Assembly (NCBI RefSeq): GCF_000012805.1
Contig: NC_007484.1
Span: forward strand, 840,001-872,000
Origin: Nitrosococcus oceani ATCC 19707
GTDB taxonomy: Bacteria > Pseudomonadota > Gammaproteobacteria > Nitrosococcales > Nitrosococcaceae
DNA length: 32,000 nt
Reading direction: 5' to 3'
Shown: in pieces, positions 7,442 to 20,740 of the stretch
How positions within the stretch are numbered: position 1 is the stretch's first letter
How the letters are laid out: each line of letters opens with the position of its first letter
Notes under the pieces: generated by a model
Told to the model about the DNA's origin: nothing
What the model saw: the letters and a program-made list of their open reading frames with translations, nothing else
Database searches by the model: none
Translations under genes and position numbers: made by a program

Positions 7442-8325
7442 ACAGCACTCAGAGACGGATACTTTTAATAGGCGCCACAGGTCAGGTGGGTTGGGAGTTA
7501 CAGCGGACCCTAGCGCCCTTGGGGGAAGTATTTGCTCCGGGGCGGGAGCGCCTGGATCTGGCCCAATTGGACAGTATTCGCCCTTGCCTTGCCGAGACCC
7601 AGCCGGCCTTGATCGTCAATGCCGCAGCTTATACCGCCGTGGATAAGGCAGAGGAGGAACCGGAGCAAGCGTTGGCCATTAATGGCAAGGCTCCTGGCGT
7701 ATTGGCGGAAACGGCCCGCCAGCAGGGCGCGGCGTTTATTCATTATTCTACCGACTATGTGTTTGATGGAAAAAAGGCCGCCCCCTATCGCGAGAGTGAT
7801 ACTCCCCGGCCGTTGAATGTTTACGGCCAAACCAAGCTGACGGGAGAGCAAGCTATTGTCGCCGTGGGTGGAGCCTATTTAATTTTGCGCACCAGTTGGG
7901 TCTATGGGCTGAGGGGACATAATTTTTTATTGACCATGCAGCGTTTGGCCCGGGAAAGGGAAGTGCTTAGGGTGGTGGATGATCAATGGGGCGCACCTAC
8001 CTGGAGCCGCTTGATTGCGGAAGGAACGGCGCAAATCATTGCCCAGTCCTGGGGTCATAGGCAGAACTATATTCCCCTACAGACAGGTATTTACCACCTA
8101 AGCTGTGGGGAAAAGACGACTTGGCATGGTTTTGCGCAGACTATTTTGACGCGCCTAGCGCAAGGGGCGGGATCGGTAGCGAAGCTAAAAGCTATTTCTG
8201 CCGCGGATTATCCGACCGCCGCCCGGCGTCCCGCCTTCTCCTGTTTGGACAATACGCTGGCACGGGATACCTTTGGCATTCAACTGCCAAGCTGGCGGAC
8301 GGCATTGGAATTGGCGCTTTCATAG
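7438..8325 (+). CDS. rfbD: dTDP-4-dehydrorhamnose reductase
   Basis: 295 aa. ILLIGATGQVG Rossmann fold and STDYVFDG motif. 4-nt overlap with rfbC. Confidence 0.93.
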   Translation: MNSTQRRILLIGATGQVGWELQRTLAPLGEVFAPGRERLDLAQLDSIRPCLAETQPALIVNAAAYTAVDKAEEEPEQALAINGKAPGVLAETARQQGAAFIHYSTDYVFDGKKAAPYRESDTPRPLNVYGQTKLTGEQAIVAVGGAYLILRTSWVYGLRGHNFLLTMQRLAREREVLRVVDDQWGAPTWSRLIAEGTAQIIAQSWGHRQNYIPLQTGIYHLSCGEKTTWHGFAQTILTRLAQGAGSVAKLKAISAADYPTAARRPAFSCLDNTLARDTFGIQLPSWRTALELALS

Positions 8326-8334
8326 GATTGTTTA

Positions 8335-10347
8335 CTAAGCGCGCCAGCCCAATTCCTGGGCCCGCTGCCGGGCCAGCGCCGGGATATCAGTGGCGATAAA
8401 ATGCTGATGCAGGATCTGTACCCCCAGGAGATGGTTGATGACCGCATCTAGCCGGACTTTAGTGGAGAGGGGGGTCTGTTTGGCTTCGTGCAAGGCAAAC
8501 AGATCCTTAACCCCTTGCGCGTCTAGTAATCCGGTATGGGCAATGGCCTCCGCGGTTAGGTATTTTTGGGCTAATTGGTTCATGGCCGCCCATTTTTTAG
8601 GATCGGTATGGGCAGGTGGCGCCATGAAGGCAAATTTTTCCCGCTCATAAAGCACCTTGGGCAAGAGTCCCCGCATGGCCTCCCGTAGCACATACTTCTC
8701 CTTTTGCCCCTTGATCCGCATGGCGGGGGGTAATCCCGTGGCGAACTCGGCTAGGTGATGGTCCAGAAAGGGGGGGCGGGCTTCCATGGAGTTGGCCATA
8801 TCCACCCGGTCTCCTCCCCAGGTCAAGATTTGCCCTTCCAGCATCGTTTTGATCCAGATATATTGGGCCTTATCCAAGGGGTGTCGATTAACCAGCATAT
8901 CCGCATCCAAATGCTCGGCAATGGCTTGGCCTGGATCATAGCTTTTAACTTGCTCACGGAGGGGGGCGCTCAGCAAGGCGGGGACATGTTCAGCCGCGTG
9001 GAGCCAAGGTTGCAGGCAACTCGGCGTGAAACCTATCAGGGCCTCTAGGGCGGTATTATGGGTCTCGTTCTCGGCTAGCATGGCTCCCCGGAAAAGCTGG
9101 TTGCTCTCGGCCAAACCCCGTTCCCACTGGACACGTTCTTGGGCAGAGAGAGTCTCCAGCCCATGGAGAATCATATCCCGGCGGAAGGAGGGATAGCCCC
9201 CAAATAATTCATCCGAGCCCTCCCCGGTCACCACGACTTTGTATTGGGTTTGGTGAACGTGACGGCTCATGAGCAGTTTAGCGACACCGAGAGTGTTGTA
9301 GATGGTTCGTTCCGTGTGCCAGAGGGTTTCGGCGAAGTGGTCATAGAGATGATCAGCCCTAAGATGGATGATATCTTGATCAGCCCCTGTGGCTCGCGCC
9401 ATTTCCTGGGCGATGGGGGTCTCATCGTAGTCCACATCATCAAAGCCGATAGTAAAGGCTTTGACCGGCGCTTGTTGGATAGCGGCCGAGAGGCCCAGGG
9501 CGATGCAGGAGTCGATGCCGCCAGAGAGATAACAGCCTACCGGGACATCGGCTTCTAGTCGGAGTTGCACTGCTTCGGTAAGCTGAGTCCGGACTCCTTC
9601 AATATGGTGCTCTTCAGGGAGGGAGTCGGTGCGTTCCGAGAGCCGGGGAAAATCCAAATCCCAGTATTTCTCTTCCCGGATCTGGAAATTACCCTGCTTG
9701 CGTTCCACAATGACCACATGCCCTGGTTTGACCTGCTGAATGCCCTCGAAGGCGGTGCTGCCTGGCACCATGGTTTGCATAAGCTGGTGAAACAGGCCCT
9801 GGGGGCTGAAGCGGCGTGGCACTTCGGGGTGGGCAAACAGGGCTTTTATTTCGGAACCAAATACCAAGGTGCCATTGACCTGGGTCCAGTAGAGGGGTTT
9901 GATGCCGAAGCGGTCCCGGATCAGCATTAATCGGTCCCTTTCCTGATCGTAGAGAGCAAAGGCAAACTCTCCCCGCAAGTGGGGCAACATCCCTCGCAGC
10001 CCCAGCCGGGGGTAGAGATGGAGTACTAACTCTGAGTCGCTTTTGGTGCGAAAACGGGCGCCGCGGGAGGTGAAATCGGCCCGCAGCCGCTTATAGTCAT
10101 AAAATTCCCCATTAGTGGTAAGCAGCAACCGGCCATCTTCGGAGGTAAAAGGCTGCCGGCCCCGGTTTGCTTCCAGATCGATAATGGAGAGGCGGGCGTG
10201 GCTGAAGCCGATCCCTTGATTGTCGATGAGTTGATAACCGAAGCCATCAGGACCACGATGGTGTTGAATGGCGGCCATGGCCACGAGCGTTTGGGGGTCG
10301 ATAGGGTGGTTAGGGTTTAGGTGGATGTAGCCAGCAATGCCACACAT
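8335..10347 (-). CDS. asparagine synthase B-like glutamine-dependent amidotransferase (long form, 670 aa); substrate unknown
   Basis: The N-terminal MCGIAGY gives the Ntn Cys2 glutaminase nucleophile. CYLSGGIDS is the PP-loop ATP-pyrophosphatase motif, so both half-reactions look intact. It is the last gene of the minus-strand operon, and its stop lies only 9 nt from the convergent rfbD stop. Confidence 0.85.
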   Translation of the reverse strand: MCGIAGYIHLNPNHPIDPQTLVAMAAIQHHRGPDGFGYQLIDNQGIGFSHARLSIIDLEANRGRQPFTSEDGRLLLTTNGEFYDYKRLRADFTSRGARFRTKSDSELVLHLYPRLGLRGMLPHLRGEFAFALYDQERDRLMLIRDRFGIKPLYWTQVNGTLVFGSEIKALFAHPEVPRRFSPQGLFHQLMQTMVPGSTAFEGIQQVKPGHVVIVERKQGNFQIREEKYWDLDFPRLSERTDSLPEEHHIEGVRTQLTEAVQLRLEADVPVGCYLSGGIDSCIALGLSAAIQQAPVKAFTIGFDDVDYDETPIAQEMARATGADQDIIHLRADHLYDHFAETLWHTERTIYNTLGVAKLLMSRHVHQTQYKVVVTGEGSDELFGGYPSFRRDMILHGLETLSAQERVQWERGLAESNQLFRGAMLAENETHNTALEALIGFTPSCLQPWLHAAEHVPALLSAPLREQVKSYDPGQAIAEHLDADMLVNRHPLDKAQYIWIKTMLEGQILTWGGDRVDMANSMEARPPFLDHHLAEFATGLPPAMRIKGQKEKYVLREAMRGLLPKVLYEREKFAFMAPPAHTDPKKWAAMNQLAQKYLTAEAIAHTGLLDAQGVKDLFALHEAKQTPLSTKVRLDAVINHLLGVQILHQHFIATDIPALARQRAQELGWRA

Positions 10348-10482
10348 AAATTCATTCCTTTTGTGGGTTAATAATCAGCCGTAAGGAGGTGGGAAGCGGT
10401 GATTCCCAAGTAGGGAGTTTTGAGTGTTACTGTTGGATCAGTCAATAATTTGGGAGAGATCATTCTCCGGGATTGAAAGAGA

Positions 10483-11565
10483 TTAGCTTTGCATGGGGGT
10501 ATCCATTACTTGATCGATTCGTTGAACAAGGGTCGTGAGCAGGGCCATGCGCATAAAGACCGCGCCCCGAGCCTGGGCAAAGTACCAGTTATGCTCTGTG
10601 TTATCCAAATCGGTGGCGAGTTCTTTTCCCCGGGCTAAAGGATGGAGAATAATTGCCCCTGGTTTGAAGGGAGAGGACCGGCAAAGTCTCAAGTCTTCCC
10701 CAATTTTTTCGAAGCTATCCCCCCGCCAAGCGATGGAATTAATATATACCACGTCCAGGGCGGGAAGTTCAGGATTGAGTTGGCGAGCCGTTCGAAGGGT
10801 AAGGCCGGAAAGGGCTAATTCTTCTCGTTGCTCTTTTGCAAATACTTCTTCTTGCTGGCAGATAACGACTACCTCTTTTATTGCCGGTGCAAATAGGGCT
10901 AGGAACAACAGTAGACTGCGCACCGTGCGCATGTAGCGGGGCGCGCCCACAACGCCTATTCGTATTTGGGCCGAGGCAGAAACCTTAGACGCCATAAGCT
11001 GCGGTCGCCATTTGAACAGCGTATACAGGTCGGCTAAGGCTTGAGTGGGATGCTCATCGATACCGTTACCGGCATTGATGATAGGAATGCGCAAGGACTC
11101 CAGCATCTGGTAGACGGCCTCTTCGCTGCTATCCCGCAATACGACCAAGTCTCCGTAATTATTGAACATTTCGGCTACATCGGCCAAGGTTTCGCCCTTA
11201 GCGATGCCGGTGGTAGCCGGATCGGTGATGGGCATCACATCGCCTCCCAGTCGATGCCAGGCACTTTCGAATGACAGGCGGGTCCGGGTGCTAGGCTCAT
11301 AGAAGGCATTGATGAGGATTTTCCCGGCTAGGGGGAGCTGTAACCAGGTAGGGGTGGTTTCATAAAGGGCAGCCAAGCGGCTCAGTTGAATGATCTTATC
11401 CCGGTCGAATTGCCGGGCGCTAAGCACGGGGCGGTTAGCCAACCCCACTAACGGAGCGGGATCTTCCAGCACTTGCTCCATTAAAGCCAAGGGCCGTTCA
11501 ATCCCCGCTGTATCATCCTTCGGTTGTAAGGGTTTTCTTAATAAGGGATCAAATTTTTTCACCAT
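10483..11565 (-). CDS. aspartate/ornithine carbamoyltransferase-fold protein, divergent PyrB-like paralog
   Basis: Present: STRTR carbamoyl-phosphate motif (YEPSTRTRLSFE), KGETLADV, HPTQ (DEHPTQALADL) and HPLARG. The canonical PyrB aspartate-site TRVQKER segment is replaced by NSIAWRGD. The track start is a TTG at 11583. I prefer the ATG at 11565 because it overlaps the stop of the upstream micro-ORF (ATGGTGA). Confidence 0.8.
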   Translation of the reverse strand: MVKKFDPLLRKPLQPKDDTAGIERPLALMEQVLEDPAPLVGLANRPVLSARQFDRDKIIQLSRLAALYETTPTWLQLPLAGKILINAFYEPSTRTRLSFESAWHRLGGDVMPITDPATTGIAKGETLADVAEMFNNYGDLVVLRDSSEEAVYQMLESLRIPIINAGNGIDEHPTQALADLYTLFKWRPQLMASKVSASAQIRIGVVGAPRYMRTVRSLLLFLALFAPAIKEVVVICQQEEVFAKEQREELALSGLTLRTARQLNPELPALDVVYINSIAWRGDSFEKIGEDLRLCRSSPFKPGAIILHPLARGKELATDLDNTEHNWYFAQARGAVFMRMALLTTLVQRIDQVMDTPMQS

Positions 11566-11681
11566 AACCGTCCCTTCAGCCAATCACGAAGTAGTAATAG
11601 CAGTAAAATAAAAGGCGCGGTGGTAGTAATGATCAAGGCCACCGTCACTAATCGGGTCAACCATTCAGCCGATATCAGCAT
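11559..11681 (-). CDS. 40-aa single-pass membrane micro-protein (below the ORF-track length cutoff)
   Basis: Hand translation gives MLISAEWLTRLVTVALIITTTAPFILLLLLLRDWLKGRLW*. Its ATG overlaps the symporter stop (ATGCTGA, 11675-11681). Its TGA overlaps the carbamoyltransferase ATG (ATGGTGA, 11559-11565). It has one strongly hydrophobic helix followed by a basic tail. Confidence 0.5.
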   Translation of the reverse strand: MLISAEWLTRLVTVALIITTTAPFILLLLLLRDWLKGRLW

Positions 11682-13123
11682 GGACTTTCCCCTTGTGGAT
11701 GAGATTCATGTAGCTTATCCCAGTTAAAATCCCTGGGCCAAAGCCAGGTGCTAAGCAGCACAATGACCATCGATACGAAGGCACCTATGAGGGCGGCGAC
11801 ATAGAAACCAATCGCAAAATAACCTATGAGACCGGCCATACTGCCTAGACCCATGGCTACCACAGCACCAGTGGGGTTGGTGCGGCGCCAATAAAGTCCC
11901 GCTGCGATGGGCCAGATGGTGCTGGCCACGAAAGCGCCGGTGAAATAGAGTAATTCGGCCAGCGTCGCTAAACGGGGGATGCACAGGAGCCAGGTTAAGA
12001 TCCCAAGACCAATAATCGCGATCACCGTTGCTTTACGAAGTTGCCAAGCCGTGGCATGGGGCCGCCAGTGGCGCCGATAGAGATCTTCCACCACCAGGAT
12101 ACTGGTTGCCGCCAATAAAGAGTCCAGGCTTGATGAGAGGGCTGAGAACACCATAACCAGCACCAGGACCGCGCCAGTAACCCCTAGCAATTCTCCGGCA
12201 ACCATGGGGCCTACCATATCGGCCGCCGGGATATTGAGATCCAGCGCGGGAACCGCCAGGGCAATAAAACCAGCAACGACAGGAATTGGCATCCATAGGA
12301 TACCGGCGGTGAAATAGGCCTTAAATCCTATGCCTTCCCGAAAGGAAAACGCTCGGCTCCACCAAACATTGGAATGGAATACTTCCCCCACTCCAAACAA
12401 CAAGTTGTTGAAAAGAAACATTAAAGCGGCAGGCATGAGGAGGTTAAGCAATTGGGGCCGCTCCTCGGCGACTGAGGCATGGATACGGTCAAAACCGACC
12501 TTATCGATGGCGAGCCAGGCAATAACCACCAGCCCGGATAGAATCAGGAGTGATTGGATAAAGTCGGTACCGATAACGGCGCGGAATCCTCCTAGCAAGG
12601 TATAACCGACACAGATAGTTAGAATAACCGTCATCCCATAATGGTAGGGGATTCCCGTCAGGGCATTGATAAGAATTCCGCCCGCCATTCCCATACTAAC
12701 CAGCCAGCCCAGACCATAGCACAGGGAGATAGCAAGAAAAATCCGCCAGGCCACCTTCCCGTAGCGCAAGCGGATAAAATCGCCACTGGTGTAGCCATTG
12801 GGCATAAGTTTGCGGATCCGCTGGGCAAGGGGAGCGAACATGAGTAGTCCCACCGCCCCTAGAGAGTAACCCAACATGCCCCAGATGCCCATTTGAAAAG
12901 CTAGTTGGGGAGCGGCCATGGTGGTATTGCTAGTGACCCAGGTGGCCATGGCGGTGGCGGTGCCTAGAGCAAGTCCTACCCGGCGCCCGGCAAGCACATA
13001 TTCATCCAGAGCTTTGGCATTGCGCCCCCAAAACCAGCCGAGCCAAATCCAAACCATGCTGAGAATGGCTAGGGTAATCCAACCCAGGCGCGGGTCCAGG
13101 ATAGCGCTATGAACTGAGTTCAC
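11675..13123 (-). CDS. sodium:solute symporter (SSS/SSF) family transporter
   Basis: 482 aa and polytopic (about 12-13 hydrophobic helices), with a PutP/PanF-like layout. The GTG start overlaps the upstream stop (GTGA at 13120-13123). Confidence 0.85.
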   Translation of the reverse strand: MNSVHSAILDPRLGWITLAILSMVWIWLGWFWGRNAKALDEYVLAGRRVGLALGTATAMATWVTSNTTMAAPQLAFQMGIWGMLGYSLGAVGLLMFAPLAQRIRKLMPNGYTSGDFIRLRYGKVAWRIFLAISLCYGLGWLVSMGMAGGILINALTGIPYHYGMTVILTICVGYTLLGGFRAVIGTDFIQSLLILSGLVVIAWLAIDKVGFDRIHASVAEERPQLLNLLMPAALMFLFNNLLFGVGEVFHSNVWWSRAFSFREGIGFKAYFTAGILWMPIPVVAGFIALAVPALDLNIPAADMVGPMVAGELLGVTGAVLVLVMVFSALSSSLDSLLAATSILVVEDLYRRHWRPHATAWQLRKATVIAIIGLGILTWLLCIPRLATLAELLYFTGAFVASTIWPIAAGLYWRRTNPTGAVVAMGLGSMAGLIGYFAIGFYVAALIGAFVSMVIVLLSTWLWPRDFNWDKLHESHPQGESPC

Positions 13124-13851
13124 GCGGCCACTACCTGATTGATTTCCGCAATGGCCTCGTCAGTAGACAAGACTCGGGCATAGCGATCTTTCAGGGCACG
13201 CAGGGTCGCCTTTTGCAGCTCTGGAGTGACGGTCGTGCAAGCATCCTCGATCAGGGTGGTGAAAAAACCTAAATCGCAGGCGTCGCGAATAGCCGTGGAG
13301 ACGCATTCATTGGTATAGACTCCCGCCACAAACAGGCCCGTAATTCCCAGATTGTGCAAGATGTAGGACAAATTAGTGGCATTAAAAACGCCACTGGCGG
13401 TTTTGTTGATGATGATCTCATCTCCCCGGGGGGCGATTGCTGGCAGAAATTCAGCCTCCTTGGAACCAGCGGGGGCATGGAGCCCCAAGCGTTTGTGTTG
13501 CGGGCCGCGATCACGGCCATCTTTGGTCAAGGACTGAATACGGGTATGGATCACTTCCAGGTTATTGGCCCGAAAGGCGGTTTGCAGACGCTGCACGTTG
13601 GGTAGGACGATCCGCTCGAGCTGATCGAAATAATAAAATTCGGGGGTGTCTTTAGAAACCTTCCCCTTGGATAAATGGGAGAAAACCCCATAGCCAGGCG
13701 CGGCATCCAGGTATTGTAAGTCTACCACCAGCAGTGCAGTGTGGCGCTTTTCCAGGGATTCCACCACGGCGGGAATTTCGGTAACGGTTTCCCGGTAGCT
13801 GGCCCGCAGTGGATCAAAACTTTCCTTTAAGGGTGCGTTGGAATGGGTCAT
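13120..13851 (-). CDS. isochorismatase-family cysteine hydrolase (amidase/ureidase type)
   Basis: 243 aa. Asp-Lys-Cys triad context: ALLVVDLQ, IINKTASGVF, GVYTNECVSTAIRDA. Confidence 0.85.
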   Translation of the reverse strand: MTHSNAPLKESFDPLRASYRETVTEIPAVVESLEKRHTALLVVDLQYLDAAPGYGVFSHLSKGKVSKDTPEFYYFDQLERIVLPNVQRLQTAFRANNLEVIHTRIQSLTKDGRDRGPQHKRLGLHAPAGSKEAEFLPAIAPRGDEIIINKTASGVFNATNLSYILHNLGITGLFVAGVYTNECVSTAIRDACDLGFFTTLIEDACTTVTPELQKATLRALKDRYARVLSTDEAIAEINQVVAA

Positions 13852-13869
13852 GATGATCCTAATTGAAGG

Positions 13870-15108
13870 TTAATGGGCTAATTGATAGAGCGTATTCAAG
13901 GCCACGTTTGCGCCCGTTTCAATGTCTTCCCAGGGAGTCCATTCCGCTGGAGAATGGCTGCGCCCTCCTTGGCTAGGAACGAAAATCATGCCTGCCCGGG
14001 TCAGGGTTGCCATGATTTGGGTGTCATGGGCGGCTCCGCTTGGCATTTGCAAAGGCTCTACCCCGAGGCTCCGGGCCGCATTAAAGATGGTCTCCATGAT
14101 GCCAGGATCGCACTTAACCGGTTCAATTTCGCTCAACACTTCAAATTCGAACATGAGCCCGCGGCGGCGGGCGATTGCCGAGAGGGCGAGGCGGAAGGCG
14201 TGGGTCAAATCCTTGAGAATGATTGCCTCGGTATCCCGCACATCCAGAGAAAACTTGACGCTTCCTGGGATTACATTTGCAGCGCCAGGAAAAACCTCTA
14301 CCCGGCCGATAGTGGCCACGCTGCGGGGACCGCCATTTTCTTCCAGAACTCGGGTAATTTCTCCTGCGAATTCGGCCAGACCTTGCAAGGCATCCTGGCG
14401 CATATCCATAGGTGTGGTGCCGGCATGGTTGGCGGTGCCCTTAAGGGTGACTTCCCATTTGAACAGGCCCACGATTCCTTCGACGACTCCCACGCTAACG
14501 CCTTGCCGCTCAAGGATGGGACCTTGTTCAATGTGGAGTTCCAAAAAGGCGATGAGACTTTCTGGTTTGCGCCTTGCTCGCAGGATGTCCGCGGGATTTA
14601 GTCCCTGGGCGGTCATGGCCTGGGAGAGGCTGATTCCGTCCAAGTCGCGGGCATTATGGATGGCTTCCGGGGTGAGGCGGCCGCTGATAGCCTGGGATCC
14701 CAACAGGCCGCCAAAGCGTCCTTCCTCATCGGTAAAGGCAATCGCCTCTACTGCATAGCGTAAAGAGAGGTCGAGTTCTTTGAAGCGGCGCAAACATTCA
14801 AGCCCGACTAATACGCCCAGGGCTCCATCCAGGTGGCCAGCACCAGGGACGGTATCGAGATGGGAGCCGGTCATGACGCTGGGGCGTTCTCCGTTCCAGT
14901 TGAAGCGGGCATGAATGTTGGCGGCGCCGTCTATATAAAGATCCAGCCCTGCCTCATGAATGCGCTCTTGGAACCATTCACGGGCTGCCTGATCGCCTTT
15001 GCTAAAGGCCATGCGATAAAGACCGTAATCGGCCCGCCGGCCGATATGGGCCAGGGTTTCCACATCCGCTTGCAGCCGCTTAAAATTTACCCTAAGAGGC
15101 GTCTTCAT
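13870..15108 (-). CDS. M20-family Zn amidase of the hydantoinase/carbamoylase group (N-carbamoyl-amino-acid or allantoate amidohydrolase-like)
   Basis: 412 aa. Motifs GSHLDTVPGAGHLDGALGV, ELHIEQGPILE and GTANHAGTTPM are typical of AmaB/AllC/HyuC-type enzymes. Confidence 0.88.
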   Translation of the reverse strand: MKTPLRVNFKRLQADVETLAHIGRRADYGLYRMAFSKGDQAAREWFQERIHEAGLDLYIDGAANIHARFNWNGERPSVMTGSHLDTVPGAGHLDGALGVLVGLECLRRFKELDLSLRYAVEAIAFTDEEGRFGGLLGSQAISGRLTPEAIHNARDLDGISLSQAMTAQGLNPADILRARRKPESLIAFLELHIEQGPILERQGVSVGVVEGIVGLFKWEVTLKGTANHAGTTPMDMRQDALQGLAEFAGEITRVLEENGGPRSVATIGRVEVFPGAANVIPGSVKFSLDVRDTEAIILKDLTHAFRLALSAIARRRGLMFEFEVLSEIEPVKCDPGIMETIFNAARSLGVEPLQMPSGAAHDTQIMATLTRAGMIFVPSQGGRSHSPAEWTPWEDIETGANVALNTLYQLAH

Positions 15109-15111
15109 AAT

Positions 15112-15726
15112 TTAGGAGTCCTCTTTTTGGCTTCGCCAGGCCCCGGAAATTATAAGGGCGAGGGTGGCAAAGAGCACCGTGGCGCCCGCGCTGAAGAAAG
15201 CAAAAGCGCGGGCAAGAGAGTGGTGCTGCACGGTCACGACTAGGGGAGAACTCCAAGAGCTTGTTGACTGTCCCTGCTTTAAGGTGCGGACCCGGTAGAA
15301 GTAGTGACCGTTGTTTTGCCCGCTAATCAGCGTTCCTTGGTCCGGCCCCCGGTAAATTGTTGTAGGTTGAGTAAATTCCATGTCATTGGCCTCCTGAAGT
15401 TCGTAGGCTAATGCCGATAAATCGCTTCCCTGCCATTTTAGATGGTAGAATCCTGCGCTTGCTGTAGGGCTATCGGAGACGAGCTCTGGGATGAAAGGAG
15501 GTGGTTTGCCCGCCCAGATGGGTAAGGTTATCAAGAAAAAAGCCATAAGCGCTAAGCTAAGCCTTGCTGTAACGTTGGTTGGAATCCTCATACTAATTAT
15601 TACCGTTCTGGCCCTATTAAATTTTGCCATGCCAGAGGATGCAGCGATAGGTTCAAGGGCTTTCTCGTAATCATCATCTGCGGCGAGTGGCTGTTTTATT
15701 ATAGAGGGCGAGGCGCTAAGTTTCAT
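15112..15726 (-). CDS. FN3-like domain membrane protein (signal peptide or anchor plus C-terminal TM helix)
   Basis: The core FYHLKWQG...YELQEA...IYRGPDQGTLISGQNNGHYFYRVRTL...SSWSSPLVVTV fits a fibronectin type III strand pattern. There is a C-terminal helix FAFFSAGATVLFATLALIISGAW followed by RSQKEDS. The likely true start is Met46 (ATG at 15591, MRIPTNVTARLSLALMAFFLITLPIWA) or Met33 (15630). The stop lies 3 nt before the amidase ATG. Confidence 0.6.
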   Translation of the reverse strand: MKLSASPSIIKQPLAADDDYEKALEPIAASSGMAKFNRARTVIISMRIPTNVTARLSLALMAFFLITLPIWAGKPPPFIPELVSDSPTASAGFYHLKWQGSDLSALAYELQEANDMEFTQPTTIYRGPDQGTLISGQNNGHYFYRVRTLKQGQSTSSWSSPLVVTVQHHSLARAFAFFSAGATVLFATLALIISGAWRSQKEDS

Positions 15727-15839: not shown

Positions 15840-17327
15840 TTGATCAAATCAATGCGGGCTAAAACATACCGACCGGGACGCTTCTATTGGGTACGCCCAA
15901 ACTCTTTTATTACTTTGATTTTGGGTGGATTTTTGCTTGTAGCGGTACCCTTATCCGCTGGCCTTATTTTTGCGGCCGTTCAAATGGAATATTTAGCGCG
16001 CCAAAGCGCGGTAGCTGTTTATAAAAGCGTCCAGGTGACTCAAGGAAGCAGGATCTTGGTACAGCAGCTTATTGCTATGGAACGGGCTGCAAGACAGTTC
16101 CAGGTGCTAGATGATCCCGCGCTGTATCAGGCTTATATGGCTAATCGGCGTAAATTCAGGGATATACTAGAGCAAATGTTAGAATTACCGCTTAGCGAGG
16201 CGCAGCGGCAGGGGTTTGACTCCCTAGCGCGGGAGGAAAGTGCTATTTACGATGTCTTGAGTGTTTATACATTAAACTCTGAGGCTGGCAAACAAGCGGC
16301 TGATCAGTTTTTGGGGTTGGCGCGGCAGGCCCGGGCTTTGCTAGCGGACAGCAACCAATTGGTAGGCGAGGAGGTAGATGCTTTACAAGAGACGGCGCGA
16401 GAGGCTCAGAAATCGCTTTTTTGGCAGGCTCTAGGTCTTATCCCCGCGGCAGGGTTGTTGGCTGTTTTATTTACGTTCTTGATTAGGGGGTATTTTCGCC
16501 AACTTGATAAATCTATCAGGCGCCTTGGTAATGGGGATTTCGATACGCCTATTGAGGTAACTGGTCCACGGGATCTGGAAGTGCTAGGACAACAGCTGGA
16601 TTGGCTACGCTGCCGTTTGGTCGAGCTAGAAGAAACCAAGGTAAAATTTCTCCGGCATGTTTCTCATGAACTTAAAACACCACTGGCAGCCCTGCGTGAA
16701 GGATCGGAATTGCTCTGCGATCAAGTCATTGGTCGTTTGAGCGCGCAGCAGCTGGAAGTAGCCCGGATTTTGCGCAGTAATAGCCTGCGTTTACAGAAAT
16801 TAATTGAAGATATGCTCCGGTTTAATTTGGCTGGTACTAATCAAATCGAGCGTGTCCCCGAAGTAGTGCGGCTGGATCAGTTGATTAAAATTGTATTGAG
16901 TGATCACATCCCGACTAGCCTGTCAAAGCAGGTTAAGTTTCTCGTGGATTTGGATCCGGTAAAAATTTTTGGTGACCAGGAACGTTTGAAAATTATCATT
17001 GATAATCTCATCTCTAACGCTCTTAAATATTCACCACCTGGCAGTTCAGTGGAAATTAAACTAACTCAGGAAGAGGGCCAAGCTTGCCTGGAGGTGCATG
17101 ACTCAGGCTCTGGTGTTGCCCCTGAAGATAGCGCACGGATATTTGATTCCTTTTATCAAGGTAAAGCGCAGCCATCAGGCCCTGTCAAGGGGACTGGCCT
17201 CGGGCTTTCAATTGTGAGGGAAATCGTGTTCGCCCACGGGGGCAATATCGAGCTTGTCAAGGAAAGCCGAAAGGGCGCGCATTTTCGGGTAACCTTGCCC
17301 CTGGCGGTAGAGGAGCGGCGTCCATGA
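15840..17327 (+). CDS. sensor histidine kinase, GlrK/QseE-like topology (2 TM, periplasmic loop, HAMP, HisKA, HATPase)
   Basis: H-box HVSHELKTPLAAL, G1 DSGSGV, G2 GTGLGLSIV. TM helices near residues 22-46 and 195-215. The track start is a TTG at 15840; an ATG at 15852 (MRAKTY...) is equally plausible. Confidence 0.9.
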   Translation: MIKSMRAKTYRPGRFYWVRPNSFITLILGGFLLVAVPLSAGLIFAAVQMEYLARQSAVAVYKSVQVTQGSRILVQQLIAMERAARQFQVLDDPALYQAYMANRRKFRDILEQMLELPLSEAQRQGFDSLAREESAIYDVLSVYTLNSEAGKQAADQFLGLARQARALLADSNQLVGEEVDALQETAREAQKSLFWQALGLIPAAGLLAVLFTFLIRGYFRQLDKSIRRLGNGDFDTPIEVTGPRDLEVLGQQLDWLRCRLVELEETKVKFLRHVSHELKTPLAALREGSELLCDQVIGRLSAQQLEVARILRSNSLRLQKLIEDMLRFNLAGTNQIERVPEVVRLDQLIKIVLSDHIPTSLSKQVKFLVDLDPVKIFGDQERLKIIIDNLISNALKYSPPGSSVEIKLTQEEGQACLEVHDSGSGVAPEDSARIFDSFYQGKAQPSGPVKGTGLGLSIVREIVFAHGGNIELVKESRKGAHFRVTLPLAVEERRP

Positions 17328-18082
17328 GGGCATTGATGGGTTATGGGGCAGTACTAGGGGTAGGCTGGGCTATGCTGGCTCTTTTTTTATTAGGAGGCTG
17401 CACTGGTTTGAAGCCAGGGTCTCCAATTCCGGTTTATGAACTTTCGTCCCCTGCCTATAAGTTGTCTGTTCCATCACCCAATTCCTTAGAGCCTGAACCT
17501 GGAGACTCCGAGCTTTTATTGCAGTACTATCGGGGTTTGCATGCCTTGTCGGAAGCGGAGTTACAGCGGGAATTGGAGCAAGCGTGGCAGACTACTGCCA
17601 AAGAACCCACGGCCTTTGATCGTTTGCAGCTCATTTTGCTTCTCTCCCTGCCCGAAGTACCTTTCCAAGACTTGGAACAAGCCCGGGCTATGCTACGATC
17701 TTTTTTAAAGACTGAGTTGGAGGGTGCCAAAGAATATGAAGGAGCCAAAGGGCTTTATGATTTAGCCCTTTTTCTGCAAGGTTTTCTTATGGAAGAAGCC
17801 CAGCAGAAACGGCGTTACCGCTTGCTTCAAGAGCAACTTGAACAAAAGCAGGAGCAGGTGAAGCGTTTGAGAAGCGGGTTGAAGTATCTTGATGGTCGCC
17901 GTAAGCAAGAGCAAGAGTGGGCTCATAGCCTAGAGCAGCAATTAGAAAATGAACGAGGAAGGGCGGAAACATTAGAGCAAAAGCTTGAAGCCCTCAAAAC
18001 CATAGAAAAGCGGCTCGAGTACCGGAATCAATCCCAGGAGAATTTGCAGCTGCCTGAGCAAAAGAATGAATCAAATGACTGA
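17324..18082 (+). CDS. lipoprotein with Q/E/K/R-rich coiled-coil C-terminus, in the QseG position
   Basis: Lipobox LFLLGGC. C-terminal heptad-like segment QQKRRYRLLQEQLEQKQEQVKRL...LEQQLENERGRAETLEQKLEALK. ATGA overlap with the kinase stop, and 17-nt overlap with the regulator start. Confidence 0.75.
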   Translation: MRALMGYGAVLGVGWAMLALFLLGGCTGLKPGSPIPVYELSSPAYKLSVPSPNSLEPEPGDSELLLQYYRGLHALSEAELQRELEQAWQTTAKEPTAFDRLQLILLLSLPEVPFQDLEQARAMLRSFLKTELEGAKEYEGAKGLYDLALFLQGFLMEEAQQKRRYRLLQEQLEQKQEQVKRLRSGLKYLDGRRKQEQEWAHSLEQQLENERGRAETLEQKLEALKTIEKRLEYRNQSQENLQLPEQKNESND

Positions 18083-19436
18083 AAATAACAGAGTTTTATT
18101 GGTAGATGATGATTGTGATTTGTTGTCGTTGCTCTCCATTCGTTTAGAGAACGGTGGCTATGAACCTGTTCGAGCGGAAAGCGGAGAAGAAGCGTTAGCC
18201 CAGGTAGAGCTGGCCCGTCCCCAAGCCGTGATCACGGATTTGCGAATGGGAGGCATGGATGGGATGGCGCTAGCGGATTGCATTCACCGGAAAAATCCGG
18301 CATTACCGGTGATTATTCTTACCGCCCATGGTTCCATCCCCGATGCGGTGCAGGCTACTAAAAATGGGGTTTTTGCTTTTCTGACCAAGCCTTATAATAG
18401 CCGGGAGCTATTGAGTCAATTGGAAAAGGCACTTCGTGTTTCAGGTATTTGCCGCGACTTGGAAGAAACCACCCCGGAGAGTTGGCGCGAGGAAATTGTC
18501 ACCCGCAGCCCGTTGATGGAGGATCTGCTCAGCCAGGCCCGACTGGTGGCCGAAAGCGAGGCCAGCATTTGTTTACGGGGCGATAGTGGAACAGGTAAGG
18601 AATTACTGGCTAAAGCTATTCACAAGGCGAGCCCGCGCAGTAAGCAGCCTTTTATTGCCGTTAACTGCGCGGCGATTCCGGAGTTATTGTTGGAATCTGA
18701 GTTATTTGGTCACGCCAAGGGTGCATTTACTGGCGCCACCCGGGATCATCCAGGATTATTTCAGGCTGCCCATGGTGGTACATTATTTTTAGATGAAATT
18801 GGCGATATGCCGGTTGCGCTCCAGGTAAAATTGCTGCGGGCACTACAAGAGCAGCAAGTACGGCCGGTAGGAAACACCTCTACGGTAAGCGTGGATGTGC
18901 GCATTATCTCGGCCACCCACAAAGATCTGGATGCGGAGGTGCGGGATGGAAACTTCCGGGAGGATCTTTATTACCGGCTTAATGTTGTGATCTTGGAAAT
19001 TCCCTCTCTCGCTGAACGGCGGGAAGATATTCTGTTTCTTGCCAATCATTTCTTACACACCTTTCGGCGTGGAAGCAAAAAAAACATTCGAGGATTCTCG
19101 GCTGAGGCAATTGAGCTATTGGTTAGCGCCCCTTGGCCGGGCAATGTCCGTCAGTTATGTAATGTGGTGGAGCAAACCGTGGTTTTGTCAACCACGCCTA
19201 TCATTTCCGCCAAACTGGTAAAAAAAGCGCTGCGTCAGCAGTCAGGCCAATTTCCTTCCTTTGCTGATGCGCGGAGGCAATTCGAGCAGGAATATCTTGC
19301 GGGTCTACTTAAAATTACCGATGGTAATGTGACTCGGGCGTCCCGGTTAGCCCGGCGTAATCGCACCGATTTTTATAAGCTTCTCCAACGTCATACTTTG
19401 GATCCTGCCGATTTTAAGCCTGCCAAATCTCAGTGA
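18066..19436 (+). CDS. sigma-54-dependent response regulator (REC, AAA+, Fis-type HTH), GlrR/QseF/AtoC-like
   Basis: REC domain with VLLVDDD and VITDLRMGGMDG. Walker A GDSGTGKE. GAFTGA sigma-54 contact loop (GHAKGAFTGA). C-terminal HTH NVTRASRLARRNRTDFYKLL. Confidence 0.92.
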   Translation: MNQMTENNRVLLVDDDCDLLSLLSIRLENGGYEPVRAESGEEALAQVELARPQAVITDLRMGGMDGMALADCIHRKNPALPVIILTAHGSIPDAVQATKNGVFAFLTKPYNSRELLSQLEKALRVSGICRDLEETTPESWREEIVTRSPLMEDLLSQARLVAESEASICLRGDSGTGKELLAKAIHKASPRSKQPFIAVNCAAIPELLLESELFGHAKGAFTGATRDHPGLFQAAHGGTLFLDEIGDMPVALQVKLLRALQEQQVRPVGNTSTVSVDVRIISATHKDLDAEVRDGNFREDLYYRLNVVILEIPSLAERREDILFLANHFLHTFRRGSKKNIRGFSAEAIELLVSAPWPGNVRQLCNVVEQTVVLSTTPIISAKLVKKALRQQSGQFPSFADARRQFEQEYLAGLLKITDGNVTRASRLARRNRTDFYKLLQRHTLDPADFKPAKSQ

Positions 19437-19892: not shown

Positions 19893-19908
19893 GGGCATTT
19901 ATTTTGCA
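19893..19908 (+). promoter_or_regulatory. sigma-54 (RpoN) -24/-12 promoter
   Basis: gGGCAT-ttatt-TTGCAt matches TGGCAC-N5-TTGCA with exact GG-to-GC spacing. It lies 53 bp upstream of the PEP-CTERM gene ATG, which has an AGGTGA SD at 19948-19953. It is directly downstream of a sigma-54 activator gene. Confidence 0.65.
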
Positions 19909-19960: not shown

Positions 19961-20740
19961 ATGCTCAGTAAACTAAGAATTCCAATAATTTTAATGGCGT
20001 TAAGTATGACTTCTACCGTCCATGCTGTTCCGACCTTGCAAGTCGGTGTTCCCGGCGGCGTCGGTGAAGGAGCGTATGGGGATTATCAGGGAAGCACATT
20101 CAATCCGGTAGAAGAAGACACCGCCATTACCAATGGAAATAGTCTTTTTGTGGCGGGTGTTTACAAGCCCAATACGCGATTTCTAGGAGGACAGTTTTCA
20201 GGGGGGGATAACTGGAGTGATTTTGGCTATGACAGCAGTTTTGATACTCGTGGAGCCGTATTGCTAGCCGCGGTTCCTGACGGCACCCTGAGCGCAGCTG
20301 ATGCCAGTTTAACAATTAATGGTTTAGGGTCATTCTTTAGGTTGCCGAATCTGGGCAGTCTTTTCCCTAACCGCCATGATCCCCTCAAAGATGATATTTC
20401 GGATTTCCTGTTTTATGATATTGGCGATTTTGCTAAAAATAGCGGGGCTGTCCCTAATTTTGCGGATGAAACGGGGGCAGCGGATGGGGAAATCAAAACC
20501 CTTACCATCGCTGGCGCCAGTGGCCTGGATTGGATCCATTTTGATGTGCTAGCCCTGGAAACCCGTCAGCAAGGCGGGGGCAGGTTTAGAACCTCCTTGG
20601 CCAATAACCCTGGATCCCATGATGTAACTTGGAATCAAGGCGGTGGAGGGTTGCAACAAATTCCTGAGCCCAGCGTCCTCGCCCTTTTTGGCGTTGGTTT
20701 TCTAGGCTTGGGTTTCTGTAGGCGTTATCGTCTGCATTAA
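19961..20740 (+). CDS. secreted PEP-CTERM sorting-domain protein (putative exosortase substrate)
   Basis: Signal peptide MLSKLRIPIILMALSMTSTVHA. C-terminus IPEPSVLALFGVGFLGLGFCRRYRLH, which is the PEP motif, a hydrophobic helix and a basic cluster. Confidence 0.85.
   Translation: MLSKLRIPIILMALSMTSTVHAVPTLQVGVPGGVGEGAYGDYQGSTFNPVEEDTAITNGNSLFVAGVYKPNTRFLGGQFSGGDNWSDFGYDSSFDTRGAVLLAAVPDGTLSAADASLTINGLGSFFRLPNLGSLFPNRHDPLKDDISDFLFYDIGDFAKNSGAVPNFADETGAADGEIKTLTIAGASGLDWIHFDVLALETRQQGGGRFRTSLANNPGSHDVTWNQGGGGLQQIPEPSVLALFGVGFLGLGFCRRYRLH

What the first reader, a model, noticed from the sequence alone, without database searches (positions are those of the whole stretch)
8335..15726. Tightly coupled seven-cistron operon combining carbamoyl transfer, carboxylate amidation, ureide/amide hydrolysis and Na+-coupled uptake, with no pathway I recognise
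**Gene order.** All cistrons are on the minus strand:
- FN3-like membrane protein
- M20 carbamoylase-type amidase
- isochorismatase-family hydrolase
- SSS symporter
- 40-aa membrane micro-ORF
- PyrB-fold transcarbamylase paralog
- 670-aa AsnB-like amidotransferase

**Junctions.** Most indicate one transcript with translational coupling:
- 3-nt gap at 15109-15111
- 18-nt gap at 13852-13869
- GTGA overlap at 13120-13123
- ATGCTGA overlap at 11675-11681
- ATGGTGA overlap at 11559-11565

Only one spacer is longer (135 nt, 10348-10482).

**Chemistry.** The transcarbamylase puts a carbamoyl group on an amine. The AsnB-type enzyme, with intact Cys2 and SGGxDS, turns a carboxylate into a carboxamide. 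The M20 enzyme removes N-carbamoyl groups. The isochorismatase-family enzyme hydrolyses amides or ureides; the family includes biuret hydrolase, RutB and N-carbamoylsarcosine amidase.

**Hypothesis A.** The operon makes, takes up and recycles an N-carbamoyl amino-acid amide solute. From memory, N-alpha-carbamoyl-L-glutamine 1-amide is a compatible solute reported from a halophilic Ectothiorhodospira. It needs exactly one carbamoylation and one alpha-carboxyl amidation, and I am not aware of an assigned gene cluster for it.

**Hypothesis B.** The operon salvages an imported ureido compound to ammonia, with the transcarbamylase running phosphorolytically.

Both are inference.
Basis: partly seen in the sequence, partly recalled or inferred. 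Interest (0 to 1): 0.8.

Follow-up and report, generated by a model that had tools for sequence, protein, structure and literature searches.

The report
Candidate carbamoyl-glutamine-amide osmolyte operon
This conserved seven-gene operon of the marine nitrifier Nitrosococcus oceani most likely makes, breaks down and re-imports an N-carbamoyl amino-acid amide osmoprotectant, probably N-carbamoyl-glutamine amide, a solute known since 1991 with no assigned genes.

Summary
Seven minus-strand cistrons (Noc_0782 downward, N. oceani ATCC 19707) sit at the stated coordinates with the stated overlaps.

The order FN3 protein–M20–isochorismatase–SSS–40-aa peptide–transcarbamylase–AsnB-like recurs in dozens of species. 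The tight junctions, and the single loose one, are conserved too.

The cluster splits into three modules:
- An invariant transcarbamylase→AsnB pair.
- A dispensable hydrolase pair (M20 + isochorismatase).
- A dispensable transporter trio.

The "PyrB" is not an ATCase. It keeps the carbamoyl-phosphate site and the alpha-carboxylate binders but lacks the RxQxER aspartate loop. The M20 is closest to L-carbamoylases and keeps their carboxylate-binding Arg.

[quoted passage not shown] There it lies between sucrose synthase and a sugar kinase. Elsewhere it adjoins MscS, BCCT and MarR genes.

Hypothesis A is the best explanation (about 0.55). Hypothesis B is disfavoured. There is no biochemical or expression evidence, and the product identity is inferred.

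The parts
15112..15591 (-). Noc_0782. Bitopic membrane protein: signal/TM helix, one periplasmic FN3 domain, then a C-terminal TM anchor (HH.L.RA..FF..GA.VF). Accessory subunit of the transport module. The annotated ORF runs to 15726, but the conserved protein starts near Met46.
   Evidence: Noc_0782; orthologs are 160-163 aa. AF2 pLDDT 73.8. Foldseek top 50 hits are all FN3. Present only where the SSS is present, and directly adjacent to the SSS in Leptospiraceae.
15698..15726 (-). Candidate sigma70-type promoter (ATGAAA-17-TATAAT) for the operon. Weak evidence.
   Evidence: 10/12 match, but the scan as a whole is not above shuffles. No sigma54 site lies upstream.
13870..15108 (-). M20 N-carbamoyl-L-alpha-amino-acid amidohydrolase (L-carbamoylase type). 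Proposed reaction: N-carbamoyl-L-glutamine -> L-glutamine + CO2 + NH3.
   Evidence: Best PDB match 3N5F at 296 bits, versus AllC 211, UAH 190 and beta-Ala synthase 168. R286, N273, H225 and R234 of 3N5F are conserved. ErtE (N-carbamyl-L-Glu amidohydrolase) is the second-best NCBIfam hit, at 386 bits.
13120..13851 (-). Isochorismatase-family cysteine hydrolase (terminal amide/ureide hydrolase). Proposed reaction: CGA -> N-carbamoyl-L-glutamine + NH3.
   Evidence: Catalytic Lys and Cys are conserved. The nearest structures are triuret/biuret hydrolases, NicF, N-carbamoylsarcosine amidase and RutB.
11675..13123 (-). Sodium:solute symporter (SSS) of no curated subfamily. Proposed (re-)uptake of the solute.
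   Evidence: PF00474; below all equivalog cut-offs. 56-77% identical across loci.
11559..11681 (-). Conserved 40-aa single-TM micro-protein with the motif P...RDW(K/R)xGxLW. Translationally coupled to the SSS and the transcarbamylase. Proposed small subunit of the SSS.
   Evidence: found in 67 of 83 loci, 40 aa in most, and its stop overlaps the ATC start..
10483..11565 (-). ATCase-fold transcarbamylase of a new subfamily, with a YIN[SA]IAWxGD 240s loop, HPLA, and a ~45-aa conserved N-terminal extension. Proposed reaction: carbamoyl phosphate + L-glutamine -> N-alpha-carbamoyl-L-glutamine.
   Evidence: Motif rules come from PMC4581275.
10348..10482 (-). The one long intercistronic spacer (135 nt). 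No Rfam match. This junction is loose in all lineages (median 86 nt, range -1 to 406).
8335..10347 (-). 670-aa AsnB-family glutamine-dependent amidotransferase. [quoted passage not shown]
   Evidence: tight ~670-aa family, 72-76% identity. It directly follows the transcarbamylase in 69 loci.

Best explanation
The operon encodes the full life cycle of a small, uncharged, nitrogen-rich compatible solute of the N-carbamoyl-L-amino-acid-amide type. [quoted passage not shown]

**Synthesis (inferred).** The ATCase-fold enzyme transfers carbamoyl from carbamoyl phosphate to the alpha-amine of L-glutamine. The AsnB-like enzyme then adenylates the free alpha-carboxylate and amidates it with glutamine-derived ammonia. 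Both charges are thereby masked.

**Turnover (inferred).** The isochorismatase-family cysteine hydrolase removes the 1-amide. The M20 L-carbamoylase removes the carbamoyl group and returns glutamine.

**Transport (inferred).** The SSS symporter, the 40-aa TM peptide and the FN3 membrane protein form a Na+-coupled importer that recaptures leaked or external solute.

**Shown here.**
- Gene content, coupling and conserved synteny.
- Modularity of the cluster.
- The active-site signatures.
- Presence of the core in the CGA producer.
- The osmolyte-gene neighbourhoods.
For: 1. **Conserved unit.** 451 species genomes carry the transcarbamylase subfamily. In the best 80 loci the gene order is conserved, with 56-77% identity for the SSS and the four enzymes and weaker matches for p204 and m40. 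The junction pattern is conserved too.
2. **Modularity.** ATC->AsnB is the invariant pair. Ectothiorhodospira and Tenderia have M20-Iso-ATC-AsnB without the transporter. Leptospiraceae and a Nitrosoglobus-labelled MAG have p204-SSS-m40-ATC-AsnB without hydrolases.
3. **Transcarbamylase site.** The carbamoyl-phosphate site, R167 and K84 are invariant. R229 becomes S/A, Q231 is lost, and HPLP becomes HPLA. By the published rules it is neither an ATCase nor a UGTCase. This fits an amino acid with a free alpha-carboxylate and a non-acidic, longer side chain.
4. **M20.** It is closest to L-carbamoylase 3N5F and conserves R286, which I recall (from memory) to be the carboxylate-binding Arg. ErtE (N-carbamyl-L-glutamate amidohydrolase) is the second-best curated model.
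5. **Isochorismatase.** Its nearest relatives all hydrolyse terminal -CONH2/ureide groups.
6. **CGA producer.** L041 is E. marismortui DSM 4180T (FOUO), the organism in which CGA was found. It carries the core.
7. **Neighbours.** Sucrose synthase in 11 loci, PfkB in 16 and BCCT in 4. MscS lies directly after AsnB in 5 loci, with remnants in 4 more locus entries covering two species. MarR is upstream in 39 loci, and MarR-type EctR1/CosR regulate osmolyte operons.
8. **E. mongolicus.** It lacks betaine and ectoine synthesis yet has SUS|M20-Iso-ATC-AsnB-MscS|PfkB.
9. **Literature.** No gene cluster for CGA is in the library.
Against: - There are no metabolite, enzymatic or expression data for any member. 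Searches by locus tag and by gene name found nothing.
- CGA has been reported from one organism only, and as a minor solute, while the cluster is in hundreds of species.
- Synthesis and hydrolysis genes in one tightly coupled transcript imply a futile cycle unless it is controlled post-transcriptionally.
- The acceptor amino acid is inferred only from which residues are lost or kept. Other neutral amino acids are not excluded.
- N. oceani lacks the MarR and the osmolyte-gene neighbours seen elsewhere.
- A MAG labelled Ca. Nitrosoglobus carries the cluster. From memory, the described members of that genus are non-marine, and the MAG's habitat is unknown.
Confidence: 0.55

Rival explanations
1. 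The enzymology is the same (carbamoylation plus carboxyl amidation of a neutral amino acid, with dedicated hydrolases and importer), but the product is a different ureido-amide than CGA. Alternatively its role is not osmoprotection, for example a nitrogen store, an ammonia buffer at high pH, or a signal.
For: - The acceptor is inferred only from loss of R229/Q231.
- CGA is known from one species only, while the cluster is widespread.
- The product carries four N atoms, and the carriers are mostly autotrophs living on or near reduced N/S compounds (titles).
Against: - The core is present in the one known CGA producer.
- The neighbours are osmolyte genes: SUS, PfkB, BCCT and MscS.
- ErtE-like M20 similarity points to a Glu/Gln-type side chain.
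- No other natural N-carbamoyl amino-acid amide is known to me (from memory).
Confidence: 0.2
2. A linear biosynthetic pathway in which carbamoyl is a transient protecting group, as acetyl is in arginine synthesis. The steps are: carbamoylate, amidate, then the hydrolases trim to release a free amino-acid amide or another end product.
For: - All four enzymes are co-transcribed and tightly coupled, which is more natural for a linear pathway than for a cycle.
- M20 deacylases play this role in arginine and lysine synthesis (family knowledge; see the ArgE/DapE hits).
Against: - Lineages without M20/Iso keep ATC+AsnB+transporter, so the hydrolases are not needed for the product.
- The M20 keeps the Arg286 equivalent, which I recall to be the carboxylate binder. 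It would therefore not accept the fully amidated intermediate.
- No known end product fits.
Confidence: 0.08
3. The operon imports an external ureido compound and degrades it to ammonia, with the transcarbamylase working phosphorolytically, as catabolic OTCase, PTCase or UGTCase do.
For: - The operon has an SSS importer plus two ureide/amide hydrolases.
- PGAP-type models would name the M20 'allantoate amidohydrolase' (NF006771, 556 bits against a cut-off of 399).
- ATCase-branch catabolic transcarbamylases exist (UGTCase).
Against: - No carbamate kinase is in the window cluster or in the neighbourhoods with called genes.
- The ATP- and glutamine-consuming AsnB-like enzyme is the transcarbamylase's invariant partner.
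- Ectothiorhodospira lacks the transporter, and Leptospiraceae and the Nitrosoglobus MAG lack the hydrolases.
- The UGTCase signature H(T/S)LP is absent.
- The AllC equivalog model fails (269 against 598).
- From general knowledge of these genera, the carriers are mainly obligate or facultative autotrophs.
Confidence: 0.07
4. Plain housekeeping paralogs (PyrB, AsnB) that happen to lie together with unrelated hydrolases and a transporter.
For: Database names are 'aspartate carbamoyltransferase' and 'asparagine synthase (glutamine-hydrolyzing)'. The AsnB-like protein passes the broad TIGR01536 model (427 against 267).
Against: - All ATCase equivalog models fail (best is 193 against 237).
- The RxQxER motif that defines ATCases is absent in all 15 members examined.
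- AsnB NF006949 fails (273 against 499).
- Gene order is conserved across classes of bacteria.
Confidence: 0.02

Closest known systems
NAGGN (N-acetylglutaminylglutamine amide) osmolyte system: asnO-ngg, the 'trio' TIGR03103/TIGR03104/TIGR03106
   Same: - An AsnB-family glutamine-dependent amidotransferase caps the alpha-carboxylate of an N-blocked glutamine residue. The result is an uncharged, glutamine-derived solute.
- From memory of the TIGRFAM 'trio' description, that cluster also co-encodes a hydrolase with the biosynthetic genes.
   Different: - The N-block here is a carbamoyl group from carbamoyl phosphate, added by an ATCase-fold enzyme. It is not an acetyl/peptide bond made by a GNAT/ATP-grasp protein.
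- The AsnB-like protein fails the AsnO model (313 against 570 bits).
- The hydrolases are M20 + isochorismatase rather than M42.
- This cluster has a dedicated SSS importer.
Aspartate transcarbamylase (PyrB) and the ATCase-branch enzyme ureidoglycine transcarbamylase (UGTCase)
   Same: - Same fold, with a full carbamoyl-phosphate site (STRTR, R105, HPTQ).
- R167 and K84, which position an alpha-carboxylate, are conserved.
- It belongs to the ATCase branch.
   Different: - The 240s loop RxQxER is replaced by YIN[SA]IAWxGD.
- HPLP becomes HPLA, and it is not H(T/S)LP.
- It has a ~45-aa conserved N-terminal extension.
- It scores below every curated transcarbamylase cut-off.
N-carbamoyl-L-amino-acid amidohydrolases (L-carbamoylase, PDB 3N5F; ErtE N-carbamyl-L-glutamate amidohydrolase)
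   Same: - It passes the TIGR01879 hydantoinase/carbamoylase family model.
- Its best structural relative is 3N5F.
- The substrate-contact residues, including Arg286, are conserved.
   Different: - It is not in a hydantoin-utilisation or ergothioneine-catabolism context.
- It fails the ErtE cut-off (386 against 520).
Isochorismatase-family amide/ureide hydrolases (biuret hydrolase BiuH, triuret hydrolase, RutB, NicF, N-carbamoylsarcosine amidase)
   Same: It has the catalytic Lys/Cys, and all of its nearest solved relatives release NH3 or carbamate from terminal amide/ureido groups.
   Different: - Only 40-63 bits to any of them.
- It fails the BiuH (71 against 370) and RutB (58 against 378) models.
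- It has an N-terminal region of about 55-80 aa ahead of the Pfam match.
SSS symporters with small accessory subunits (ActP/YjcH, the VC_2705 family with DUF4212; from memory)
   Same: An SSS permease is encoded with a tiny, co-translated membrane peptide.
   Different: - The 40-aa peptide and the FN3 bitopic protein match no Pfam family.
- The three-part combination appears specific to this cluster.
Ectoine system logic: ectABC with the MarR-type EctR/CosR regulators, TeaABC re-uptake and Doe degradation
   Same: - It combines synthesis, degradation and re-uptake of one solute.
- A MarR-type regulator sits next to the biosynthetic genes (for EctR1/CosR).
   Different: - Here all the functions are packed into one operon.
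- The chemistry and protein families are unrelated.

Membership tests
Aspartate transcarbamylase (PyrB) | RxQxER motif in the 240s loop (R229, Q231 bind the aspartate beta-carboxylate), per PMC4581275 | tested here: not met
   R229 becomes S/A in 15/15 members, Q231 is replaced, and the loop reads YIN[SA]IAWxGD. The rule is quoted.
Aspartate transcarbamylase (PyrB) | Score above the curated equivalog cut-off (TIGR00670, NF002032) | tested here: not met
   193.3 against 236.95, and 181.4 against 263.
Transcarbamylase superfamily | Carbamoyl-phosphate site: SxRT, HPxQ, R105 and the HxLP region | tested here: met
   STRTR, R105 and HPTQ are invariant. The HxLP region reads HPLA (P268 becomes A in all members).
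Ureidoglycine transcarbamylase (UGTCase) | H(T/S)LP motif, with S258/K261 in the 240s loop (PMC4581275) | tested here: not met
   the motif is HPLA, and the loop has no Ser...Lys pair.
Asparagine synthetase B / AsnB-family amidotransferases | N-terminal Cys2 glutaminase domain plus the SGGxDS PP-loop; broad model TIGR01536 | tested here: met
   427 against 267; MCGIAG, LSGGIDS.
E. coli-type AsnB (NF006949) and AsnO of NAGGN (TIGR03104) | Score above the curated cut-off | tested here: not met
   273 against 499, and 313 against 570. TIGR03108 (PEP-CTERM amidotransferase) also fails, at 391 against 817.
Hydantoinase/carbamoylase-family M20 amidases (TIGR01879) | Score above the cut-off, with the substrate-contact Arg (R286 of 3N5F) and other contact residues present | tested here: met
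   (384 against 204). R286, N273, H225 and R234 are conserved. The role of R286 is from memory of the 3N5F literature.
Allantoate amidohydrolase AllC (TIGR03176) / ErtE (NF058540) | Equivalog cut-off | tested here: not met
   269 against 598, and 386 against 520. It does pass the loosely named subfamily model NF006771 (556 against 399).
Isochorismatase-like cysteine hydrolases (PF00857) | Pfam gathering score and the catalytic Lys/Cys | tested here: met
   114 against 27; inK..., tneCv aligned to the triuret hydrolase catalytic residues. The catalytic Asp was not checked.
Biuret hydrolase BiuH / RutB | Equivalog cut-off | tested here: not met
   70.7 against 370, and 57.9 against 378.
Sodium:solute symporter family | PF00474 gathering score; membership of a curated subfamily (PutP, PanF, ActP) | tested here: inconclusive
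   PF00474 is met (97 against 22.8); all subfamily models fail, and TIGR00813 scores 140 against 184.
[quoted passage not shown] | Production of CGA from glutamine, carbamoyl phosphate, ATP and an amide donor | not testable with these tools
   Correlative evidence only: the core is present in the producer strain DSM 4180T, and the enzyme signatures fit.
Compatible-solute gene cluster (general) | Salt-dependent expression or accumulation | not testable with these tools
   No expression data were found. Indirect evidence comes from the osmolyte-gene neighbours.

The most novel reading that the evidence does not exclude
- It would contain the first natural glutamine N-alpha-transcarbamylase and a dedicated N-carbamoyl-glutamine alpha-amide synthetase.
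- It would also contain a previously undescribed three-component Na+ symporter (SSS + 40-aa peptide + FN3 anchor protein).
- CGA, thought unique to one Dead Sea phototroph, would then be a widespread osmolyte of marine and soda-lake sulfur oxidisers, phototrophs, symbionts and the nitrifier Nitrosococcus.
Probability: 0.45. Interest if true: 0.75.

Novelty: new variant of a known kind. Interest (0 to 1): 0.66.

Why it matters
- **An orphan metabolite gets genes.** CGA has had no genes for 35 years. Assigning them would allow its distribution to be read from genomes. About 450 species in the GTDB representative set carry the key enzyme.
- It would revise the picture for soda-lake sulfur oxidisers, purple sulfur bacteria, lucinid symbionts and marine ammonia oxidisers.
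- **Enzymology.** It defines a new transcarbamylase specificity class on the ATCase branch, now mis-annotated everywhere as PyrB. The transcarbamylase review notes that an enzyme making N-carbamyl-glutamate-type compounds would be valuable.
- **Transport.** It points to a new accessory-subunit architecture for SSS transporters.
- **Applications.** CGA is a neutral, very polar solute that could be produced heterologously from two genes.

Tried and rejected
- **Plasmid DNA search:** no match.
- **Rfam scan of the operon and spacer:** nothing at E <= 1.
- **Promoter/terminator scan:** not above shuffles.
- **Sigma54 promoter for the divergent GlrK/GlrR-like system:** none upstream of the operon. 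That TCS and the rml/zwf/glgA neighbours are not conserved next to the cluster outside Nitrosococcus-type genomes. They were therefore rejected as parts of the system.
- **Literature:** searches for CGA genes, Thioalkalivibrio salt responses, N. oceani osmolytes and the locus tags Noc_0777-0782 found no functional data. The Klotz 2006 genome paper and Galinski & Oren 1991 are not held. The N. oceani microarray supplement is truncated before these genes.
- **Pfam at E = 10 for the FN3 protein:** no hit. The fold was resolved by structure prediction instead.
- **Glutathione-amide synthesis as a role for the AsnB-like enzyme (prompted):** considered and rejected. It would not need a transcarbamylase, and the cluster occurs in strains in which no glutathione reductase, the marker that paper uses to infer glutathione amide, was found.
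- **UGTCase/purine catabolism:** rejected on motif grounds.
- **MarR of the cluster:** matches no curated regulator model.

Full report
**1. Source and observation**

The window is from Nitrosococcus oceani ATCC 19707. The transcarbamylase is 100% identical to the NCBI protein, and the first cistron is Noc_0782.

All seven minus-strand ORFs are at the stated coordinates. The junction strings ATGCTGA, ATGGTGA and GTGA were read directly.

- AsnB-family amidotransferase, with Cys2 and SGGxDS seen.
- ATCase-fold transcarbamylase.
- SSS symporter.
- Isochorismatase-family hydrolase.
- M20 carbamoylase-type amidase.

The 204-aa protein has no Pfam hit even at E = 10. An AlphaFold model from 10 orthologs (pLDDT 73.8) shows helix, beta-sandwich and TM helix, and its best 50 PDB matches are all FN3 domains.

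One correction concerns its start. The first ~45 codons are not conserved, orthologs are 160-163 aa, and the best sigma70-like match lies inside that stretch. The protein probably starts at Met46 (15591).

**2. The unit is real and conserved**

An alignment of the transcarbamylase subfamily found relatives in 451 species-representative genomes. I searched the seven window proteins against the best 80 loci.

- The order p204-M20-Iso-SSS-m40-ATC-AsnB, all on one strand, recurs with 56-77% identity for the SSS and the four enzymes (32-46% for p204). It is seen in Thioalkalivibrio, Thiohalophilus, Thiohalobacter, a lucinid symbiont and many MAGs.
- Junction architecture is conserved. Iso->SSS overlaps in 53/56 loci, SSS->m40 in 30/34 and m40->ATC in 32/33. 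ATC->AsnB is the only loose junction everywhere (median 86 nt).
- The 40-aa ORF is a genuine gene. It is 40 codons in most loci (a few recovered ORFs are longer only by non-conserved N-terminal extensions), carries the motif P...RDW(K/R)xGxLW, and was found in 67 of 83 loci.

**3. Modularity**

Three arrangements exist.

| Type | Arrangement | Carriers |
|---|---|---|
| I | Full seven genes | N. oceani, Thioalkalivibrio, Thiohalophilus and others |
| II | (MarR-)M20-Iso-ATC-AsnB; no SSS, m40 or p204 | All ten Ectothiorhodospira loci, Ectothiorhodosinus, Ca. Tenderia |
| III | p204-SSS-(m40)-ATC-AsnB; no hydrolases | Leptospiraceae MAGs; a Ca. Nitrosoglobus-labelled MAG |

The Nitrosoglobus-labelled MAG is otherwise syntenic with this window. 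It retains a faint remnant of the Iso 3' end (E = 0.007), which is consistent with a recent deletion.

From these arrangements:
- ATC->AsnB is the obligate pair.
- M20+Iso and p204+SSS+m40 are separable add-ons.
- p204 occurs only with the SSS and is directly adjacent to it in Leptospiraceae. I therefore assign it to the transporter.
- Thiorhodospira sibirica keeps only m40+ATC.

**4. What the enzymes say**

*Transcarbamylase.*
- Against E. coli PyrB (sequence recalled, then validated by motif numbering), the carbamoyl-phosphate site, R167 and K84 are invariant in 15 members.
- R229 becomes S/A and Q231 is lost. The 240s loop reads YIN[SA]IAWxGD, and HPLP becomes HPLA.
- The transcarbamylase review states that RxQxER defines ATCases, that R229/Q231 hold the beta-carboxylate, and that R167/K84 hold the alpha-carboxylate. 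It also states that UGTCase is defined by H(T/S)LP.
- This enzyme is therefore neither an ATCase nor a UGTCase. It also fails every curated transcarbamylase model.
- The pattern fits an alpha-amino acid with a free carboxylate and a non-acidic, bulkier side chain. Glutamine fits. This step is inference.

*M20.*
- Its best solved relative is the L-carbamoylase 3N5F at 296 bits. Allantoate amidohydrolase scores 211, ureidoglycolate hydrolase 190 and beta-alanine synthase 168.
- R286, N273, H225 and R234 of 3N5F are conserved. From memory, R286 binds the substrate carboxylate.
- The second-best curated model is ErtE, an N-carbamyl-L-glutamate amidohydrolase.
- It should therefore act on the free acid (N-carbamoyl-Gln or -Glu), not on the amide.

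*Isochorismatase-family protein.* It keeps the catalytic Lys and Cys. Its nearest structures are triuret and biuret hydrolases, NicF, N-carbamoylsarcosine amidase and RutB, all of which cleave terminal amide or ureido groups.

*AsnB-like protein.* It is a tight 670-aa family. It fails the AsnB, AsnO and PEP-CTERM amidotransferase equivalog models.

**5. [quoted passage not shown] - Locus L041 lies on contig FOUO01000006. FOUO is E. marismortui DSM 4180T. It carries M20-Iso-ATC-AsnB.
- Only three papers in the library mention the compound, and none assigns genes.
- A 2020 genome survey proposed CGA-type solutes for Ectothiorhodospiraceae that lack betaine and ectoine genes. One of these, Ectothiorhodosinus mongolicus, has sucrose synthase | M20-Iso-ATC-AsnB-MscS | PfkB.

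**6. Neighbourhood evidence**

- In every Ectothiorhodospira locus with enough flank, the core lies next to a divergent sucrose synthase, with a PfkB sugar kinase also in the locus. PfkB sits convergently right after AsnB in five of them, and an MscS gene or other genes intervene in the rest.
- In Thioalkalivibrio, BCCT transporters, porins and PfkB flank the cluster.
- An MscS mechanosensitive-channel gene follows AsnB on the same strand in five loci. It persists as a C-terminal remnant in E. shaposhnikovii and E. magna.
- A MarR gene precedes the cluster in 39 loci. MarR-type EctR1 and CosR are established repressors of osmolyte operons.
- In N. oceani these neighbours are absent. The flanks are rmlBADC/zwf/glgA and a GlrK/YfhG/GlrR-like sigma54 system. 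No sigma54 promoter faces the operon.

**7. Proposed mechanism (inferred)**

1. Gln + carbamoyl phosphate -> N-carbamoyl-Gln (ATC).
2. N-carbamoyl-Gln + ATP + Gln -> CGA (AsnB-like).
3. CGA -> N-carbamoyl-Gln + NH3 (Iso).
4. N-carbamoyl-Gln -> Gln + CO2 + NH3 (M20).
5. Na+-coupled recapture by SSS/m40/FN3.

Co-encoding of synthesis and hydrolysis has partial precedents, both recalled from memory: the NAGGN 'trio' and the ectoine synthesis/degradation cycle. It still requires post-transcriptional control, which is unexplained.

**8. Weaknesses**

- There is no chemistry or expression evidence.
- CGA is described as found in one organism only, and as a minor solute.
- The acceptor amino acid is not proven.
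- A Nitrosoglobus-labelled MAG of unknown habitat carries the cluster.

Hypothesis B is disfavoured by the module distribution, by the invariant AsnB partner, by the absence of carbamate kinase, and by failure of the UGTCase and AllC tests.

**9. Verdict**

The finding is a real, widely conserved and unassigned gene cluster. The best reading (about 0.55) is the CGA-type solute life-cycle operon. Novelty: a new variant of a known kind, namely an amino-acid-derived osmolyte cluster built on a new transcarbamylase specificity and an unusual three-part SSS importer.

Noticed in passing
window 19893-19908 (+), upstream of 19961-20740: A sigma54-like site (GGGCATTTATTTTGCA, 2 mismatches) lies ~50 nt upstream of a PEP-CTERM 'choice-of-anchor N' protein gene. 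It sits directly downstream of the GlrK/YfhG/GlrR-like sigma54 two-component system (15840-19436). This gene, not the osmolyte operon, may be the system's target. The region also has a GC dip (0.41).
   Followed up: partly
window 15592-15726 (-): The annotated N-terminus of Noc_0782 (45 codons) is not conserved in orthologs and contains the best sigma70-like promoter match. The start codon is probably mis-annotated.
   Followed up: yes
L082/L016 (Thiorhodospira sibirica) 9885-11080: Only the 40-aa peptide gene and the transcarbamylase survive, between a patatin gene and a lipid A acyltransferase-family gene. No AsnB, M20, Iso or SSS lies within 10 kb. This may be a decaying remnant or a second use of the enzyme. 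The species is reported to have no annotated osmotic-stress genes.
   Followed up: partly
L017 (Ectothiorhodospira shaposhnikovii PHS-Q) 13272, 16681, 20090: The 59-aa MscS C-terminal remnant downstream of AsnB appears three times at a spacing of 3409 nt. This suggests a ~3.4-kb tandem triplication next to the cluster.
   Followed up: no
L008 11071-20179: In one gammaproteobacterial MAG the AsnB-like gene lies ~9 kb downstream of the transcarbamylase instead of adjacent. This suggests an insertion into the normally 86-nt spacer.
   Followed up: no
window 8325-8335: The AsnB-like stop (8335-8337, followed by a second in-frame stop) and the convergent rmlD stop (8323-8325) are only 9 nt apart. 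This leaves no room for separate terminators.
   Followed up: no
window 11431-11565 (-), residues 1-45 of the transcarbamylase: A ~45-residue N-terminal extension precedes the ATCase fold and is conserved across the subfamily (invariant G21, E23, P25, L28, E34). It has no counterpart in PyrB, and its function is unknown.
   Followed up: no
L038 4429-6598 (Leptospiraceae MAG): The M20 gene follows the transcarbamylase directly here, in the order p204-SSS-m40-ATC-M20, before the contig ends. This is a fourth gene order.
   Followed up: partly
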